DNA of 52,428 bases. Origin: an uncultured Candidatus Saccharibacteria bacterium (lineage in GTDB: Bacteria; Patescibacteriota; Minisyncoccia; UBA11713; 2-01-FULL-45-33). The notes under the pieces were generated by a model, which worked only from the letters and a program-made list of their open reading frames with translations, was not told where the DNA came from and searched no databases. Shown here piece after piece: positions 17,526-29,053 of this stretch (positions are counted from its first letter, which is position 1; each line of letters starts with the position of its first letter). Made by a program: the position numbers and the translations under genes. The stretch spans positions 1 through 52,428 of the forward strand of contig CAYXFX010000004.1 in assembly GCA_964464405.1 (NCBI GenBank), in the 5' to 3' direction.

Positions 17526-17573
17526 GAGTTATCCACAAATAGATTTTGCTAATAGATTTACGAGCAGTATAAT
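17526..17573 (+). promoter_or_regulatory. DnaA-box-like 9-mer upstream of a putative promoter
   Basis: GAG-TTATCCACA at 17526-17537, TTGCTA-N16-TATAAT at 17546-17573. Confidence 0.5.
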
Positions 17574-22904: not shown

Positions 22905-25900
22905 ATGAAGAGCATGCAAATAAAATTTTTTATAGCCGTTTCTTTATTGGTGTCGCCGATTTTTTCTTTTGCGTACGATGACAAAACAACTCATCCGGCA
23001 TTAACAGATGAGATAATAGATCTTTTTAACCTCTATTATCCAAATTCAAAATTTTCAAGCGAAGAAAAAGAGTTAATAAAAAAGGGAAGTATCGAAGAAG
23101 ATTTTGCTCCGCGATGGATGACCCATTTTTACGACCCCGTTTATAATCGGGGATTATGGGGGAATCCGTCTGCAAATGTCTGGGCACAAGATTCTGACAC
23201 TCAAGTAACTTTAACCGGATACTACAATCAAACTGGCGTATATAGCGCTTTAACACTTCGACCTTTCGAAGCTCCGAGCGACTATTCTTGGGAACGGGCA
23301 ATTTATGATTACGTTTGGGGAGACAAAAAAAGAGGCATGGAAGCTCTCGGACATGTTCTCCACTTGATTGAAGACTCTTCTGTGCCGGATCACACTCGCA
23401 ATGATGCTCATCCCCCTATTTTGGACTTTGGAAGTCCTTACGAATTTTGGACCAAACGTTTTACGCCCGAAACATTGGATGGCCTTGCCACAGAAATTTA
23501 TTTTACCGGCACTCAAATACCTACTGACTACTCGGGGCTTTATGGGTATTTTAATTCTTTGGCAATGTATTCTAACAATAACTTTTTCAGTAAAGATACT
23601 ATTTTTGACGTCGGATATCATCAACCGTTAGTTGATTTCTATGGAAATGAAATACTAAAAAATGGAAGCGTAGTTAGGTTCGGTTTTAGCGATTCCGGAC
23701 GCGTACATTTGATTCGTGTGCCATTAAATACCTCATGGAGAGCTAGTATCGGTTCCGATGACGTAGTTGAGCCAATATTATCAGATGCGGACGATAAAAT
23801 CCTCACCGATTACTGGACTCGTCTGTCCAAACAAGCTGTTTTGCATGGAGCGGGGGTTGTTAAATTGTTTTTGGAAGAGGCTGAAAAGGAAAGAAAAAGC
23901 AAAGAACTTTGGGCGAAAAATAGATCGCTGGCTGACAAATTGGCTTCTGTCTTTTCTTTTTTCGGCCCCTCGCCAGAACCGGTTTCAAACATTTCAGAAC
24001 TTTCTTCTGATGCTTTCAACTTGGAGTCCCGACCTCCAAGTAACTTAGCAACCGGGTTGCTAAGTGAAGGCGAGTTTGCCAACAGGTCTGCTTCACAAAC
24101 TTCCTCGAATGAAAGCGTTTTGAATACTCCTAACTTCGCAAGTTTATCTGCACCTGCAAATTTAATTAGTTCCGCAAATTCGAATATGAATTCGGGTTTG
24201 CCCACAAATTCTGAAACGCCGAACGGAGGAGACGGTTCGGTTCCTGCCGGTTTCGGCGGGGGAATGCCGATTCCAAACCCTATTAGTAGTACCGTCGAAA
24301 GCTTGGCGCATAGCGCAATAAGCGAATCCGATACAACAGCTCCTGGTGCGCCTGTAGTGCAAAATCCAGTGGACGGTGCAAACTTTACTGTAGCTTCAAT
24401 TAATTTTTCTGGAACCGCAGAAAATGATTCGATAATATCCAATGATTTTAATAATGCGACTACTTCTGTGGATTTACTTGGCAACTGGCTAATTAATTTA
24501 AATAATTTAAACCAGGGCACAACGACAATAAGTTTTTCTGCGCAAGACGCGGCAGGAAACAAATCTTCTTCAACACAAATTTCAATTTTTGTTGATTCCG
24601 AAATTCCCGACTTTAATTTAACAATTCAAGAATGCGAAATTTCTTTAAGCGCCGAAGATTGTGTACTGCTTTTGCCAGACATTAAAATTTCTTGGTCTTC
24701 CTCCGCTTTAGATATTGATCATTTTGAAATTATTTGCAAAAAAAACAATGTACCTTGCGAAAACTTTTTAATCGGAACTTCGACAGCTCTCTATTCTCTT
24801 TCTGAAAATTCAAGCTACATTTTTACCGGTAGGGCTTTTGATAAAAACGGAAATAAAAGTATAGAGATAAATAAATCCGTCACGTATTCTCCGCGCCCAG
24901 TTGTTATTAATGAAATTGCCTGGGCGGGAACAAAATTTCATAATTCTGATGAATGGATAGAGCTTGCAAATATAACGACTAGCGAAATTTCATTGGATGG
25001 ATGGACTCTTTTTGCAAAAAATTCAAATAAACCGTATATACCTCTTTCTGGAAAAATTCCTGCAAAAGGATATTTTCTTTTAGAAAGAACCGATGACGAA
25101 ACAGTAAGCGATATTCCTGCCGACTTAATCTATGGAAATAATGGATCAGCTTGGGCATTAAACGATTCTCCCGCGGATATTTTGGTTTTATCCCACGCAT
25201 CGACAACAATTGATGAGACCATAAGATGCAACACCAGATGGTGCGGAGGGTCAACATCCAATGAACGCCCCTCGGCTGAAAGAATAGCTCCCATGTTGCC
25301 TGGAAGTAATATGGCCAACTGGGCTACGGCGCTCGGCACTGTTAGAAATGGCAAAGACGAAAAGGGGGACCCAATAAAAGGCACACCCAAGGCAAGAAAT
25401 AGCGTCAACTATTTGATTTCTTTAGGCGACAATCTAACGGAAAATAAAATTTTAAAATCGGCAAATAGCCCCTATTTAGTTAACAATTCTTATTTAATAA
25501 TTCCAGAAGGGTTGGAGATGAGTATAGAACCAGGTGTTGTTATAAAAATTGCAAAAAATTCTACGGTGTTGGTAAGAGGAAAATTAAAATCGGAAGGGGC
25601 TCAAAATAACGAAATTGTTTTTACTTCAATAGATGACGACTCTTACGCTGGCGATATGAATGGAAACGGAACTTCCACGTCGCCCATGCCAGGCGATTGG
25701 AGAGGACTGCATTTCTCAAATACAAGTTTAGGTTCCAATGTTTCTTACACAAAATTTATTTATGGAGGAAAATGGAACGGAGGAGAATATGGATACCAAA
25801 GATCTATGGTAAGCGCTGATCACGTTTCTCTGCCGATTTCAAATTCAAATTTTGAAAAATCATTTTCTGCCGGACTTTTCTTAAATTATTCAGATTCGGT

Positions 25901-26774
25901 GGTGGAGAATAGCTCATTTTTAGAAAATAAAACAGGGATCATAATTTATCAAGGGGCTCCCTTGGTGTCAGGAAATATTTTTGAAAGTAATAATGATGGA
26001 ATAAGCCAATTAACAACGCAAAGTGTTGTTAAGGATAATGTATTTAACAATAACACGGGATATGCGGTATTTTCTGCAGATAAAATCGGAACATTTTCGG
26101 GCAACACAGGTGAGGGAAACGGAAAAAATGTAATATCTATTTATGGGAATATAGGCGTCGCAGGCTCAACAACAACTCTTGAAAAAAATGAAATTCCTTA
26201 CGGTTTGCCGGTAAATAGTTACGGACCTTTTATGTTGCCGGCGGGAGCCGGGCTTAAGATTGGGCCTGGGAGTGTTTTTAAAGCGGACAATAAAGGGCAA
26301 ATGGTTATCAACGGTACGCTTCATATAGACGGAACGGAATCTGAACGTATTCGTTTCTCTTCTTTGGCCGAAGGAGGGCCGGGGGAATGGAAGGGCCTTT
26401 TAGTAAATCCAGGAGGACTTGTTTACGGCGGATATTTTAGTTTAAAAAACGGAGGAGGAGATCCTGGATGCGAAAGCACATGCGCTGGGTTTGGAATTAA
26501 AAATGGAAGTATTGAATTATCCAACGGAGTAATCGAAAACAATCTTAGCAGAGGAATGAGAATTGAAAGTTCTTCAACAACATTAATTAACTTCGAATTT
26601 AAAAATCATGCTTCCTCCACCGCATTGCAGGCAATTAATTCAAAAATCACGCTTGACCACGTTTCATTTACAAATAATTTTCTCGCGGTTTCATCCGGCT
26701 CATCAATATTTAACGTCTACGATTTAATTTTTTCCGGAAACATAACGATATCAACGCCGCCGGATCTTTTCTAG
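22905..26774 (+). CDS. Secreted multidomain protein: Zn phospholipase C/P1-nuclease-like domain, Ig-like domain, lamin-tail domain, right-handed beta-helix
   Basis: Signal peptide; TTH, EED, HFYDP, HLIED, PDH, DAH, YE ligand pattern; VINEIAWAGT..DEWIELAN LTD motif; repeated GxxI/N-ladder beta-helix. Confidence 0.72.
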   Translation: MKSMQIKFFIAVSLLVSPIFSFAYDDKTTHPALTDEIIDLFNLYYPNSKFSSEEKELIKKGSIEEDFAPRWMTHFYDPVYNRGLWGNPSANVWAQDSDTQVTLTGYYNQTGVYSALTLRPFEAPSDYSWERAIYDYVWGDKKRGMEALGHVLHLIEDSSVPDHTRNDAHPPILDFGSPYEFWTKRFTPETLDGLATEIYFTGTQIPTDYSGLYGYFNSLAMYSNNNFFSKDTIFDVGYHQPLVDFYGNEILKNGSVVRFGFSDSGRVHLIRVPLNTSWRASIGSDDVVEPILSDADDKILTDYWTRLSKQAVLHGAGVVKLFLEEAEKERKSKELWAKNRSLADKLASVFSFFGPSPEPVSNISELSSDAFNLESRPPSNLATGLLSEGEFANRSASQTSSNESVLNTPNFASLSAPANLISSANSNMNSGLPTNSETPNGGDGSVPAGFGGGMPIPNPISSTVESLAHSAISESDTTAPGAPVVQNPVDGANFTVASINFSGTAENDSIISNDFNNATTSVDLLGNWLINLNNLNQGTTTISFSAQDAAGNKSSSTQISIFVDSEIPDFNLTIQECEISLSAEDCVLLLPDIKISWSSSALDIDHFEIICKKNNVPCENFLIGTSTALYSLSENSSYIFTGRAFDKNGNKSIEINKSVTYSPRPVVINEIAWAGTKFHNSDEWIELANITTSEISLDGWTLFAKNSNKPYIPLSGKIPAKGYFLLERTDDETVSDIPADLIYGNNGSAWALNDSPADILVLSHASTTIDETIRCNTRWCGGSTSNERPSAERIAPMLPGSNMANWATALGTVRNGKDEKGDPIKGTPKARNSVNYLISLGDNLTENKILKSANSPYLVNNSYLIIPEGLEMSIEPGVVIKIAKNSTVLVRGKLKSEGAQNNEIVFTSIDDDSYAGDMNGNGTSTSPMPGDWRGLHFSNTSLGSNVSYTKFIYGGKWNGGEYGYQRSMVSADHVSLPISNSNFEKSFSAGLFLNYSDSVVENSSFLENKTGIIIYQGAPLVSGNIFESNNDGISQLTTQSVVKDNVFNNNTGYAVFSADKIGTFSGNTGEGNGKNVISIYGNIGVAGSTTTLEKNEIPYGLPVNSYGPFMLPAGAGLKIGPGSVFKADNKGQMVINGTLHIDGTESERIRFSSLAEGGPGEWKGLLVNPGGLVYGGYFSLKNGGGDPGCESTCAGFGIKNGSIELSNGVIENNLSRGMRIESSSTTLINFEFKNHASSTALQAINSKITLDHVSFTNNFLAVSSGSSIFNVYDLIFSGNITISTPPDLF

Positions 26775-26791
26775 TCGCCCTTTTATTTTTT
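26765..26791 (+). repeat. 27-bp direct repeat, left copy
   Basis: TCTTTTCTAGTCGCCCTTTTATTTTTT, identical to 27955-27981; contains the stop codon of 22905-26774. Confidence 0.9.
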
Positions 26792-26865
26792 TTGTTTGTC
26801 ACAAATATTTTGTTAACGCATTACCTGTGCTTTACTGGCAATTTAGTAGATTTCCACATCCCCCA

Positions 26866-26894
26866 TTGATTTTTCATTATAAGAGATATATACT
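26866..26894 (+). promoter_or_regulatory. Sigma70-type promoter of the NYN cassette
   Basis: TTGATT-N17-TATACT. Confidence 0.65.
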
Positions 26895-26910
26895 GAAAAT
26901 ATTAACAGCA

Positions 26911-26945
26911 CCACCTCTGTCTTTACGGGCAGAGGTGGTTCTTTT
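26911..26945 (+). terminator. Leader hairpin / intrinsic terminator upstream of NYN-ASCH ORF
   Basis: 11-bp stem CCACCTCTGTC/GGCAGAGGTGG (one G-U), loop TTTACG, followed by TTCTTTT. Confidence 0.65.
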
Positions 26946-27848
26946 GTGTCTATTTGTGCTAAAATTCATTATAAAGTGACTAAAAAAGAAATTGTTGCAG
27001 TATATATTGATGGTAGTAATACGTACAAGAGATTAAAGGGACTGGGAATACCAGATAAGTCACTGCGGTTTGATTTATCATTTTTCGTAAAACATCTTGT
27101 TGGAGAAAGGACCTTGATATCAAAGAGATACTATATCGGCATAGTAAGGAATGTTGATAATTCCGAAAAAGCAGAAAAAATGGCAAAAAGTCAGCAAAAA
27201 TTTTTGGAAAGTCTGCGAACAGAAGGTTTTGATGTGAACCCAGGGAAGATAATGTATGACGGTGGTCGTATCAGGGAGAAGGGTGTTGATGTTAAACTTT
27301 CGGTAGACTTAGTAATAGGCGCAGTAGATAGTATATATGATACTGCGATTGTGGTCAGTTCAGATACAGACTTAATACCAGCAATAAAATATGTTCGCAA
27401 TGTTAAGGGTAAGGTGGTTGAGTATGTTGGTTTTGGAACTAATCCATCGCTTGGGATGATAAAAGAGTCATCGGTATCAAGGGTGTTCTCTCTTACTGAT
27501 TTGGCACAATTTCAAAGCAAAACTATCAAATTTAGAGATTACTTAACAGGCTTGATACTAAAAGGAGAAAAAACCACAACTTGGCGGTTATTTGATGATA
27601 AAAATTTGCTAGTAGGAGACTTATTAAATTTTCAGATATGGGAAACCGGTAAAGATTTTGCAAAAGCTAAAATTATTGAATTAAAAGAAAAAAAATTAAA
27701 AGAAATAGTAGCAAAAGACTATGATGGACACGAGAAATTAAAAGACCAGGAAAGTATGCTCAACCACTTTAGGGAGTTTTACGGAAACAAGGTTAATTTG
27801 GAAACTACGGTTAAGATAGTCAAATTCAATTTAGTTTCAAAACAATAA
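26946..27848 (+). CDS. NYN (LabA/DUF88, PIN-like) ribonuclease fused to C-terminal ASCH domain
   Basis: YIDGSN, EKGVDVKLSVDL, VSSDTDLIP acidic PIN/NYN residues; ILKGEKTTTWR ASCH motif GxKxxTxR. Start may be GTG 26976. Confidence 0.85.
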   Translation: MSICAKIHYKVTKKEIVAVYIDGSNTYKRLKGLGIPDKSLRFDLSFFVKHLVGERTLISKRYYIGIVRNVDNSEKAEKMAKSQQKFLESLRTEGFDVNPGKIMYDGGRIREKGVDVKLSVDLVIGAVDSIYDTAIVVSSDTDLIPAIKYVRNVKGKVVEYVGFGTNPSLGMIKESSVSRVFSLTDLAQFQSKTIKFRDYLTGLILKGEKTTTWRLFDDKNLLVGDLLNFQIWETGKDFAKAKIIELKEKKLKEIVAKDYDGHEKLKDQESMLNHFREFYGNKVNLETTVKIVKFNLVSKQ

Positions 27849-27954: not shown

Positions 27955-27981
27955 TCTTTTCTAGTCGCCCTTTTATTTTTT
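27955..27981 (+). repeat. 27-bp direct repeat, right copy
   Basis: Identical to 26765-26791. Confidence 0.9.
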
Positions 27982-29003: not shown

Positions 29004-29053
29004 GAGTTATCCACAGGGCAAAAACTTGCAATATTTTAAAAGCGAGCTAAAAT
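29004..29053 (+). promoter_or_regulatory. DnaA-box-like 9-mer upstream of putative rpoB promoter
   Basis: GAG-TTATCCACA at 29004-29015, TTGCAA-N16-TAAAAT at 29026-29053. Confidence 0.5.

What the first reader, a model, noticed from the sequence alone, without database searches (positions are those of the whole stretch)
26946..27848. NYN ribonuclease fused to an ASCH domain
A single ORF joins an intact PIN-like NYN active site to an ASCH domain with GxKxxTxR. ASCH/PUA domains bind RNA, and E. coli YqfB removes the acetyl group of N4-acetylcytidine. Inference: a nuclease that reads or erases RNA modifications, e.g. on tRNA, as a defence effector or sensor. I do not recognise this fusion as a characterised system.
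Basis: partly seen in the sequence, partly recalled or inferred. Interest (0 to 1): 0.65.

Follow-up and report, generated by a model that had tools for sequence, protein, structure and literature searches.

The report
NYN RNase fused to ac4C-deacetylase-type ASCH
A tiny groundwater bacterium (Patescibacteria) really does encode one protein joining an RNA-cutting NYN domain to an ASCH domain of the type that removes acetyl groups from cytidine. It is a rare variant of a very widespread single-gene RNase unit that carries its own small hairpin RNA, and nothing links it to phage defence.

Summary
ORF 26946-27848 (+) has an N-terminal NYN domain and a C-terminal ASCH domain, both above Pfam's gathering scores. 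The model is confident (pLDDT 89.7). The halves match LabA-like VPA0982 and MARF1 NYN, and E. coli YqfB ac4C amidohydrolase. The NYN acidic residues and the YqfB-type residues K209, T212, R214 and E263 are intact.

The fusion is no artefact. About 24 other protein clusters and three independent assemblies carry it, and a distant NYN subfamily is also fused to ASCH.

The defence reading is not supported. The NYN half belongs to a highly conserved Patescibacterial family, one locus per assembly in 80 assemblies. It has no conserved neighbours, no defence context and almost no viral copies. Only 2 of the 80 best species-representative loci carry ASCH.

Two further features appeared:
- Nearly every gene of this family is preceded by a consensus promoter and a covarying, terminator-like hairpin RNA that matches no Rfam family.
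- In this genome the whole 1.19-kb unit lies between perfect 27-nt direct repeats, at a site that is empty in a relative.

Best reading (about 0.5): a two-activity RNA-turnover enzyme that couples RNA cleavage with ac4C removal, for salvage or tRNA/rRNA processing. A hairpin-RNA-controlled toxin-like module remains possible.

The parts
26765..26791 (+). Left copy of the perfect 27-nt direct repeat TCTTTTCTAGTCGCCCTTTTATTTTTT. It overlaps the last codons and the stop of the upstream LTD/Ig surface-protein gene.
   Evidence: 2 copies in the window, 0 expected by chance
26851..26894 (+). TTTCCACA box followed by promoter P1 (TTGATT-17-TATACT). The S-layer-like gene and rpoB in this window have the same architecture.
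   Evidence: P1 is conserved in 65 of 65 family loci inspected
26896..26951 (+). Conserved leader RNA motif. It has a 5' UAACAGC tail, a 12-13 bp hairpin (26910-26939) and a U tract, so it looks like an intrinsic terminator.
   Evidence: covariance model R1, 71.7 bits; covariation; fold -23.8 kcal/mol, z -5.8; terminator scan; no Rfam family
26957..26965 (+). Second, extended -10-like box (TGCTAAAAT), 10 nt before GTG 26976. It implies a nearly leaderless NYN mRNA (inference).
   Evidence: conserved TGnTAnAAT 6-12 nt before the start codon in relatives
26946..27848 (+). NYN-ASCH ORF, 300 aa from GTG 26946. The probable start is GTG 26976, giving 290 aa.
26994..27515 (+). LabA-type NYN (PIN-like) ribonuclease domain with D22, N25, D115, D121, D140 and D142.
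27516..27527 (+). Fusion junction (...FQ|SKTIKF...), with no linker. DNA homology to solo NYN loci ends at 27522.
27528..27845 (+). YqfB-type ASCH domain with octapeptide G207-R214. Catalytic-residue equivalents are K209, T212, R214 and E263.
27955..27981 (+). Right copy of the 27-nt direct repeat, 16 nt before secF.

Best explanation
The gene encodes a cytoplasmic two-domain enzyme. The N-terminal half is a LabA-type NYN (PIN-like) metal-dependent endoribonuclease with a complete set of acidic residues. The C-terminal half is a YqfB-type ASCH N4-acylcytidine (ac4C) amidohydrolase with the Lys/Thr/Arg octapeptide and the Glu74 equivalent. The two are joined head to tail without a linker and are predicted to pack as one body.

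It is a rare derivative of a widespread NYN RNase unit of Patescibacteria that shows one locus per assembly. That unit always consists of a strong promoter, a short hairpin/terminator RNA, a second -10 box and the RNase gene.

Inferred mechanism: the NYN domain cleaves cellular or scavenged RNA (tRNA or rRNA). The ASCH domain removes the N4-acetyl group from cytidine, either on that RNA or on the released nucleoside. RNA decay then yields reusable cytidine in an organism of a group with reduced biosynthetic capacity. It acts in RNA turnover, processing or salvage and is not a defence effector.

Shown here: domain identities, intact catalytic residues, recurrence, lack of defence context, the leader RNA, and the insertion. 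Inferred: the substrates, the coupling of the two activities, and the salvage role.
For: - Domains and fold.
- Catalytic residues: NYN acidic residues are invariant. K209/T212/R214/E263 align with YqfB K21/T24/R26/E74 and are kept in 97/96/98/78% of 131 subfamily representatives.
- Published activity: ASCH proteins deacetylate free ac4C and ac4C in tRNA (PMC6972931; preprints 10.64898/2026.02.27.708502 and 10.64898/2026.08.01.741249).
- Independent fusions: P0129 joins an only 33%-identical NYN to the same ASCH subfamily. An AU test rejects a single clade of fused NYN domains (p 3e-5).
- Other fusion partners of this ASCH subfamily are enzymes of kinds that mostly act on small molecules or nucleotides: NUDIX (three of 20 scanned), an AAA_33 kinase, a SAM methyltransferase, an alpha/beta hydrolase, PNPOx and peptidase S51.
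- Family behaviour looks like housekeeping: 50-85% identity across named candidate phyla, one locus per assembly in 80 assemblies, 207 GTDB species hit by two strict peptide patterns, and only 2 distant hits in viral contigs.
- P1 shares its TCCACA-box promoter architecture with the S-layer-like gene and rpoBC.
Against: - No biochemical data exist for any bacterial PF01936 NYN protein, so the RNase substrate is unknown.
- The Glu74 equivalent is missing in 2-3 fused homologues (P0017, P0023, possibly P0024).
- NCBIfam's YqfB equivalog model scores far below its cut-off (19.9 against 93), so substrate specificity may differ.
- No solo ASCH gene lies next to a solo NYN gene, and no neighbourhood is conserved. 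The functional link therefore rests on the fusions alone.
- The promoter-RNA-terminator-RNase layout and the cassette-like insertion also fit a selfish or toxin-like module.
Confidence: 0.5

Rival explanations
1. Modification-guided RNase. The ASCH domain acts mainly as a reader or eraser that docks on ac4C-bearing RNA, for example ac4C34 of elongator tRNA-Met or an rRNA site. It positions the NYN site for a specific cut. This would make a regulated tRNA/rRNA processing or stress nuclease rather than a bulk-decay and salvage enzyme.
For: - pTM 0.84 with no linker suggests a fixed arrangement of the two active sites.
- ASCH proteins act on ac4C within tRNA, and their RNA binding varies from protein to protein.
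- NYN and ASCH were fused at least twice independently.
- NYN domains fused to RNA-binding OST-HTH domains are a known theme.
Against: - The other fusion partners of this ASCH subfamily are kinds of enzyme that mostly act on small molecules.
- More than 95% of the family works without ASCH, and a sister clade carries a different, unknown C-terminal domain.
- No evidence for ac4C in these organisms was obtainable here.
Confidence: 0.2
2. RNA-controlled toxin-like module, analogous to type III toxin-antitoxin or abortive-infection systems. The strongly transcribed hairpin RNA neutralises or programmes the NYN RNase. The unit is selfish and moves as a cassette, and ASCH is an accessory sensor.
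For: - The layout promoter, about 45-nt hairpin RNA with U tract, then RNase gene is found upstream of about 75 of 80 family loci, with only 2 weak sense-strand hits elsewhere in 852 kb searched.
- The stem sequence and a C.A mismatch are conserved beyond what pairing requires.
- The unit here lies between perfect 27-nt direct repeats at a site that is empty in relative L101.
- Genomic position varies between loci.
- The nearest NYN relatives (84% aa, 78% nt) have unrelated flanks.
- PADLOC NYN models match.
Against: - There are no tandem RNA repeats, and the toxin fold is not ToxN/AbiQ.
- The family shows one locus per assembly, is very conserved and is widespread, whereas toxin-antitoxin systems are usually patchy and multi-copy.
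- There is no defence-island context, and the family is nearly absent from viral contigs.
- No recombinase lies nearby.
- The site upstream of secF is a general swap-prone spot with other, unrelated inserts (L098, L099).
- The hairpin may simply be an insulating terminator or an autoregulatory leader.
Confidence: 0.15
3. Assembly or read-through artefact: two separate genes were joined by error.
For: None found. It was considered because the window comes from a metagenome assembly.
Against: - About 24 other clusters from several sources have the same architecture.
- Independent Logan contigs of three samples match with 0 differences.
- Both domains are conserved, in frame, and model well.
Confidence: 0.01

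Closest known systems
E. coli YqfB and YqfB-type ASCH amidohydrolases (PDB 1TE7, 9KYF-9KYH; PMC6972931, PMC9599836)
   Same: ASCH beta-barrel fold (Foldseek TM 0.76). Threonine-type octapeptide GxKxxTxR. Equivalents of Lys21, Thr24, Arg26 and Glu74 are all present.
   Different: Only about 17-19% identical. It is far below the NCBIfam equivalog cut-off. It belongs to a separate, mainly uncultured-lineage subfamily (418 clusters at 50% identity) with extra conserved residues (W213, D217, D218, K219, H262). Here it is fused to an RNase rather than standing alone.
LabA / COG1432 NYN proteins (PF01936; VPA0982, PDB 2QIP; Synechococcus LabA) and the MARF1 NYN domain (5YAA, 6FDL)
   Same: PIN-like NYN fold with the conserved acidic residues. 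MARF1 NYN is a proven ssRNA endonuclease, and it too carries accessory RNA-binding domains.
   Different: No bacterial member has a defined substrate. This Patescibacterial family is unusually conserved and has a dedicated promoter-hairpin leader. Its accessory domain is ASCH, not OST-HTH/LOTUS.
Archaeal ASCH-HTH (AAAD_HTH) tRNA ac4C erasers (preprint 10.64898/2026.02.27.708502)
   Same: A catalytic ASCH domain joined to a second nucleic-acid-directed domain.
   Different: There the partner only binds tRNA. Here the partner is itself a nuclease with an intact active site.
Type III toxin-antitoxin systems (ToxIN, CptIN, TenpIN)
   Same: The order is promoter, short non-coding RNA, intrinsic terminator, endoribonuclease gene.
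   Different: The RNA is a single hairpin rather than tandem repeats. The nuclease is NYN/PIN-like, not ToxN-fold. The family is widespread, conserved and shows one locus per assembly. No toxicity data exist.
PIN_15/PIN_17 VapC-GNAT toxins with neighbouring HTH-ASCH genes (PMC5499597)
   Same: A PIN-superfamily nuclease is associated with ASCH/PUA-like domains and acetyl chemistry.
   Different: Those are VapC-type PINs in multi-gene toxin-antitoxin operons with acetyltransferases. Here a NYN-type domain is fused directly to ASCH, with no partner gene.

Membership tests
NYN domain, LabA-like (PF01936 / COG1432) | Profile match above the curated cut-off | tested here: met
   65.5 bits against 24.2, E 9.5e-18
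NYN domain, LabA-like (PF01936 / COG1432) | Conserved acidic/Asn active-site residues of the PIN-like fold | tested here: met
   D22, N25, D115, D121, D140 and D142 are invariant in 18- and 53-sequence alignments
NYN domain, LabA-like (PF01936 / COG1432) | PIN-like three-layer fold | tested here: met
   Foldseek: 2QIP E 1.4e-9, TM 0.80; MARF1 NYN TM 0.68-0.70
NYN domain, LabA-like (PF01936 / COG1432) | Metal-dependent ribonuclease activity | not testable with these tools
   Needs an enzyme assay
ASCH domain, YqfB-type N4-acylcytidine amidohydrolase | ASCH profile match above the cut-off, and the ASCH fold | tested here: met
   27.4 bits against 21.2; Foldseek YqfB 9KYF E 6e-6, TM 0.76; profile against PDB: PH0355 5.6e-4, YqfB 2e-3
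ASCH domain, YqfB-type N4-acylcytidine amidohydrolase | Octapeptide GxKxxTxR, with Lys and Thr essential for catalysis | tested here: met
   G207-E-K209-T-T-T212-W-R214. K, T and R are kept in 97, 96 and 98% of 131 subfamily representatives. Their essential role is reported.
ASCH domain, YqfB-type N4-acylcytidine amidohydrolase | Equivalent of Glu74 | tested here: met
   E263 aligns with E74. It is kept in 78% of the subfamily and is missing in a few fused homologues.
ASCH domain, YqfB-type N4-acylcytidine amidohydrolase | Orthology to YqfB (NCBIfam equivalog NF003443) | tested here: not met
   19.9 bits against a cut-off of 93. It is a different subfamily, so the same chemistry is inferred, not shown.
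ASCH domain, YqfB-type N4-acylcytidine amidohydrolase | ac4C deacetylation activity | not testable with these tools
   Needs an assay on the nucleoside and on tRNA
Anti-phage defence system | Lies in defence islands or next to known defence genes | tested here: not met
   The window has an LTD surface protein, then the gene, then secF, rpoB and rpoC. Other fused loci have different housekeeping neighbours. Among 142 neighbours of 80 loci the top family is NUDIX, at 3 of 142.
Anti-phage defence system | Match to a curated defence-protein model | tested here: inconclusive
   PADLOC HEC-09 58 bits and the NYN model 36 bits, over the NYN domain only. This shows domain-level homology without the system's context.
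Type III toxin-antitoxin | Promoter, then non-coding RNA, then terminator, then endoRNase gene | tested here: met
Type III toxin-antitoxin | Antitoxin RNA made of tandem repeats that the toxin processes | tested here: not met
   There is a single hairpin and no repeat array between 26800 and 26975
Type III toxin-antitoxin | ToxN/AbiQ-fold toxin | tested here: not met
   The fold is NYN/PIN-like
Type III toxin-antitoxin | Toxicity that the RNA neutralises | not testable with these tools
   Needs expression tests in a laboratory strain

The most novel reading that the evidence does not exclude
The invariant promoter-hairpin RNA and the NYN RNase form a previously undescribed two-part RNA-protein module of Patescibacteria, in which the small RNA neutralises, programmes or autoregulates the nuclease. 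The module moves between genomic sites as a self-contained single-gene cassette. The ASCH-fused form would tie its activity to the acetylation state (ac4C) of tRNA or rRNA. That would make it the first natural enzyme coupling erasure of an RNA modification to RNA cleavage.
Probability: 0.15. Interest if true: 0.8.

Novelty: new variant of a known kind. Interest (0 to 1): 0.52.

Why it matters
ASCH proteins have only recently been proposed as ac4C erasers acting on tRNA and on free nucleosides, and their biological context is still open. A natural, recurrent and independently arisen fusion of such a domain to an intact RNase argues that ac4C removal is tied to RNA cleavage or decay. It also offers a compact protein in which to test that link.

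The host NYN family is one of the most conserved uncharacterised genes of Patescibacteria. It carries a dedicated structured RNA absent from Rfam. Working out this pair could reveal a core RNA-metabolism step, or a new RNA-controlled nuclease, in a very large uncultured part of the bacterial tree.

Tried and rejected
- A single-sequence search of PDB sequences gave only chance hits. A profile and a fold search were needed.
- Rfam at a permissive E-value has no family for the leader or the 3' region.
- No RNA-seq run holds the stretch, so the small RNA and the two promoters could not be checked on transcripts.
- Contigs from four DNA runs showed no allele lacking the cassette and no joints. Contig breaks at the repeats in run X5 look like strain variation and were not interpreted.
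- The exact 27-mer has no match in metagenome contigs.
- No flanking direct repeats were found around fused genes in L001, L003 or L005, so repeats are not a constant feature of the unit.
- The neighbour census found no conserved partner gene. An ASCH HMM against all loci found ASCH only inside the fusions.
- The NYN-domain tree is poorly resolved. Only the AU test was informative.
- The roughly 125-aa C-terminal domain of the 310-aa sister clade has no Pfam match, and the whole-model fold search returned only NYN hits. It remains unassigned.
- An upstream mini-ORF coupled to NYN translation was considered. It was rejected because its frame and length are not conserved.
Copy number in this genome and the presence of TmcA/TmcAL could not be tested.

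Full report
**1. The observation**

The window has an ORF at 26946-27848 on the + strand, 300 aa from a GTG. Pfam finds NYN (PF01936, aa 17-165, E 9.5e-18, 65.5 bits against a cut-off of 24.2). It also finds ASCH (PF04266, aa 195-297, E 5.8e-6, 27.4 bits against 21.2). NCBIfam's ac4C amidohydrolase (YqfB) equivalog matches weakly, at 19.9 bits against a cut-off of 93. Homologues begin at MxKKE, so the likelier start is GTG 26976, giving 290 aa.

**2. Structure and catalytic residues**

An AlphaFold2 model built on a 53-sequence alignment has mean pLDDT 89.7 and pTM 0.84. That pTM is high for two domains and suggests they pack together.

Foldseek against the PDB gives these matches:
- N half: LabA-like VPA0982 (2QIP, E 1.4e-9, TM 0.80) and the MARF1 NYN domain (5YAA, 6FDL).
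- C half: E. coli ac4C amidohydrolase YqfB (9KYF, E 6e-6, TM 0.76), PH0355 (2Z0T) and ZmASCH.

A profile of the ASCH halves finds PH0355 (E 5.6e-4) and YqfB (E 2e-3) by sequence.

In an alignment of 131 representatives of this ASCH subfamily with YqfB, four residues line up:

| Window residue | YqfB residue | Kept in subfamily |
|---|---|---|
| K209 | K21 | 97% |
| T212 | T24 | 96% |
| R214 | R26 | 98% |
| E263 | E74 | 78% |

A few fused homologues lack the Glu (P0017, P0023). The NYN residues D22, N25, D115, D121, D140 and D142 are invariant in fused and solo homologues.

**3. Not an artefact, but rare**

A search of 5.8 billion protein clusters returned about 24 other NYN+ASCH clusters at 59-74% identity, from NCBI, JGI, ENA and Logan. 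It also returned thousands of ~185-aa solo NYN proteins at 65-85% identity over the NYN half. Their source labels include Giovannonibacteria, Kaiserbacteria, Paceibacterota and Woesebacteria.

Logan contigs from three other groundwater samples cover the gene and both flanks with no difference.

In one genome per GTDB species, two strict peptide patterns found 207 loci. The best 80 come from 80 different assemblies, all but a few labelled as candidate-phyla-radiation bacteria. Only L016 and L017 among them are ASCH fusions.

A sister clade of about 310 aa carries a different C-terminal domain with no Pfam match and no assigned fold.

**4. How the fusion arose**

The nearest NYN relatives of the window's protein are solo genes (P0026, P0027; 84% aa). 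At the DNA level they align with the window from 26853 to 27522 (77-79%). That is from the upstream leader to exactly the NYN|ASCH junction. Solo ASCH proteins of the subfamily begin M-K-T-L-K-F. The fusion therefore joins the NYN C-terminus (...FQ) to ASCH residue 2, without a linker.

On a NYN-domain tree the fused forms are scattered among solo forms. An AU test rejects a single fused clade (delta lnL 115, p 3e-5). P0129 joins a NYN that is only 33% identical to the same ASCH subfamily. P0029, of the 310-aa clade, keeps the first ASCH strand (KTLKFKE) before its other domain. Domains have therefore been gained, lost or swapped repeatedly at this junction. NYN and ASCH have come together more than once, which is the main evidence for a functional link.

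**5. What the ASCH subfamily does elsewhere**

Searching 1.84 billion representatives with the ASCH half gave 418 clusters. Most are solo proteins of about 110 aa. Multi-domain members pair ASCH with these partners:
- NUDIX (3 of 20 scanned, in either order)
- an AAA_33/zeta-type kinase
- a SAM methyltransferase
- an alpha/beta hydrolase
- a PNPOx-like domain
- peptidase S51
- membrane-anchored coiled-coil regions

Apart from the membrane-anchored forms, these are kinds of enzyme that mostly act on small molecules or nucleotides. That leans towards a nucleoside or nucleotide substrate.

Published work fits this. It shows YqfB hydrolysing free ac4C (PMC6972931). A 2026 preprint describes EOLA1 in ac4C salvage. 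Another 2026 preprint shows 19 of 19 ASCH proteins removing ac4C from tRNA, with the octapeptide Lys and Thr/Glu essential.

**6. Context: no defence signal**

In the window the gene lies between a 1289-aa LTD/Ig surface protein and secF, followed by rpoB and rpoC. Other fused loci have different neighbours:

| Locus | Upstream | Downstream |
|---|---|---|
| L001 | PEMT | NUDIX |
| L003, L016 | Exo_endo_phos | ABC transporter |
| L005 | Dus | DNA polymerase III delta' |

Solo loci are just as varied. Among 142 immediate neighbours of 80 loci, no Pfam family occurs more than three times (NUDIX, AAA_5, AAA_16). No solo ASCH gene lies near a solo NYN gene. The PADLOC matches (HEC-09, NYN) cover only the NYN domain. 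Only two distant relatives exist in 2.9 million viral contigs. The defence interpretation is therefore not supported.

**7. A dedicated leader RNA**

All eight loci first compared share an upstream element with these parts, in order:
- a TCCACA box
- a consensus promoter, TTGAC/T-17-(TG)TATAAT
- about 7 nt later, a short tail (UAACAGC)
- a 12-bp hairpin and a U run
- a second extended -10 box (TGnTAnAAT), 6-12 nt before the start codon

In the window these lie at 26851-26965. The hairpin is at 26910-26939. It folds at -23.8 kcal/mol (z -5.8) and is called terminator-like.

A covariance model built from 20 copies hit the + strand just upstream of the NYN gene in about 75 of 80 loci. Only two weak + strand hits lay elsewhere in 852 kb, and the window has only this one copy.

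Among 67 distinct copies, pairs covary strongly (for example CG 37/UA 30 and AU 45/GC 19). G.U pairs place the structure on the sense strand. Half the copies keep a C.A mismatch. No Rfam family matches.

The element may be a discrete ~45-nt RNA, an attenuating leader or an autoregulatory target. No transcript data were available to decide. The distant NYN paralogue in L001 lacks the element.

**8. The unit is an insertion here**

A perfect 27-nt direct repeat (26765-26791 and 27955-27981) brackets promoter, leader, gene and 3' region. It occurs nowhere else in the window.

- In relative L101 (SecF 61% and RpoB 77% identical), the surface-protein gene and secF are 36 nt apart. The intergenic sequence there resembles one repeat copy.
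- L099 and L098 have other, unrelated genes at the same place.
- In L098 the insert is bracketed by a 42-nt duplication of the secF 5' end.

The site upstream of secF is therefore swap-prone, and the NYN-ASCH unit arrived as a self-contained cassette. No recombinase gene was seen in the Pfam-scanned neighbours. No empty allele was seen in four runs, and the 27-mer has no match in metagenome contigs.

**9. Interpretation**

- Domain identities and intact catalytic residues are well supported (about 0.95).
- Best reading (about 0.5): a two-activity RNA-turnover enzyme, combining endonucleolytic cleavage with ac4C deacetylation. It would serve RNA processing or nucleotide salvage in an organism of a group with reduced biosynthetic capacity.
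- Rival (0.2): a modification-guided specific RNase.
- Rival (0.15): an RNA-controlled toxin-like mobile module. It fits the promoter-RNA-terminator-RNase layout and the cassette behaviour. It fits poorly with one locus per assembly, high conservation, wide spread and the lack of defence context.
- Artefact is excluded (0.01).

**10. Novelty**

I found no paper describing a NYN+ASCH protein or this NYN family in Patescibacteria. JGI's automatic names already record the two domains. I rate it a new variant of known kinds. The leader RNA and RNase pairing is the more unusual part.

Earlier notes from this scan had independently flagged the leader (e1-5106249, e1-1298962), the repeats (e1-5106248) and the 310-aa variant (e1-4993449). 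I re-derived and tested the first three here.

Noticed in passing
window 26851-26975; same position in L001, L003, L005, L007, L010, L013 and L016-L097: A conserved promoter, hairpin and U-tract RNA element precedes nearly every gene of this NYN family and occurs almost nowhere else. It shows strong covariation, a conserved C.A mismatch and no Rfam match.
   Followed up: yes
window 26765-26791 and 27955-27981; L101 3964-4001: Perfect 27-nt direct repeats bracket the 1.19-kb NYN-ASCH unit. A relative has the empty site, with the surface-protein gene and secF 36 nt apart.
   Followed up: yes
L098 3276-3317 and 4004-4045: At the same site upstream of secF, another genome has a different insert (68-aa and 152-aa ORFs). 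It is bracketed by a 42-nt duplication of the secF 5' end (86% identical). The site looks like a recurrent insertion hot spot with target duplication.
   Followed up: partly
window 17530-17573, 26851-26894, 29008-29053: Three promoters share a T(T/A)TCCACA box (like a DnaA box) 8-10 nt upstream of the -35. They precede the S-layer-like gene, the NYN leader and rpoB. The box also sits upstream of P1 in many NYN loci of other genomes, sometimes inverted.
   Followed up: partly
P0060, P0044, P0066 and others (L013 5001-5933; L019, L022, L035, L070): A well-supported sister clade of the NYN family (~310 aa) carries a ~125-aa C-terminal domain (GVIIEESL...KHKT.W.KQWTLH...HFIIY) with no Pfam match and no PDB fold match in a whole-model search. 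P0029 keeps the first ASCH strand (KTLKFKE) in front of it.
   Followed up: partly
P0124, P0135, P0140, P0157, P0134 (representatives of the ASCH subfamily): The same ASCH subfamily also occurs at the C-terminus of membrane-anchored proteins. Some have a Ser/Thr-rich N-terminus, one transmembrane helix and a coiled coil; others have several transmembrane helices. It is also fused to NUDIX, an AAA_33 kinase, a methyltransferase, an alpha/beta hydrolase, PNPOx and peptidase S51.
   Followed up: partly
window 26932-26948: Only in this genome is the frame open from GTG 26946, directly after the hairpin. The hairpin's 3' arm supplies a Shine-Dalgarno-like GAGGTGG 8 nt upstream, which would add MSICAKIHYK to the protein. 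The homologue-type start here is GTG 26976, not ATG, which is unusual for a leaderless mRNA.
   Followed up: no
L001 12293-12913: A second, very distant NYN paralogue (206 aa) lies 4 kb from the fused gene. It has no leader hairpin.
   Followed up: partly
window 22905-26774: The upstream 1289-aa protein shows only LTD and Ig-like Pfam domains at E <= 0.01.
   Followed up: partly
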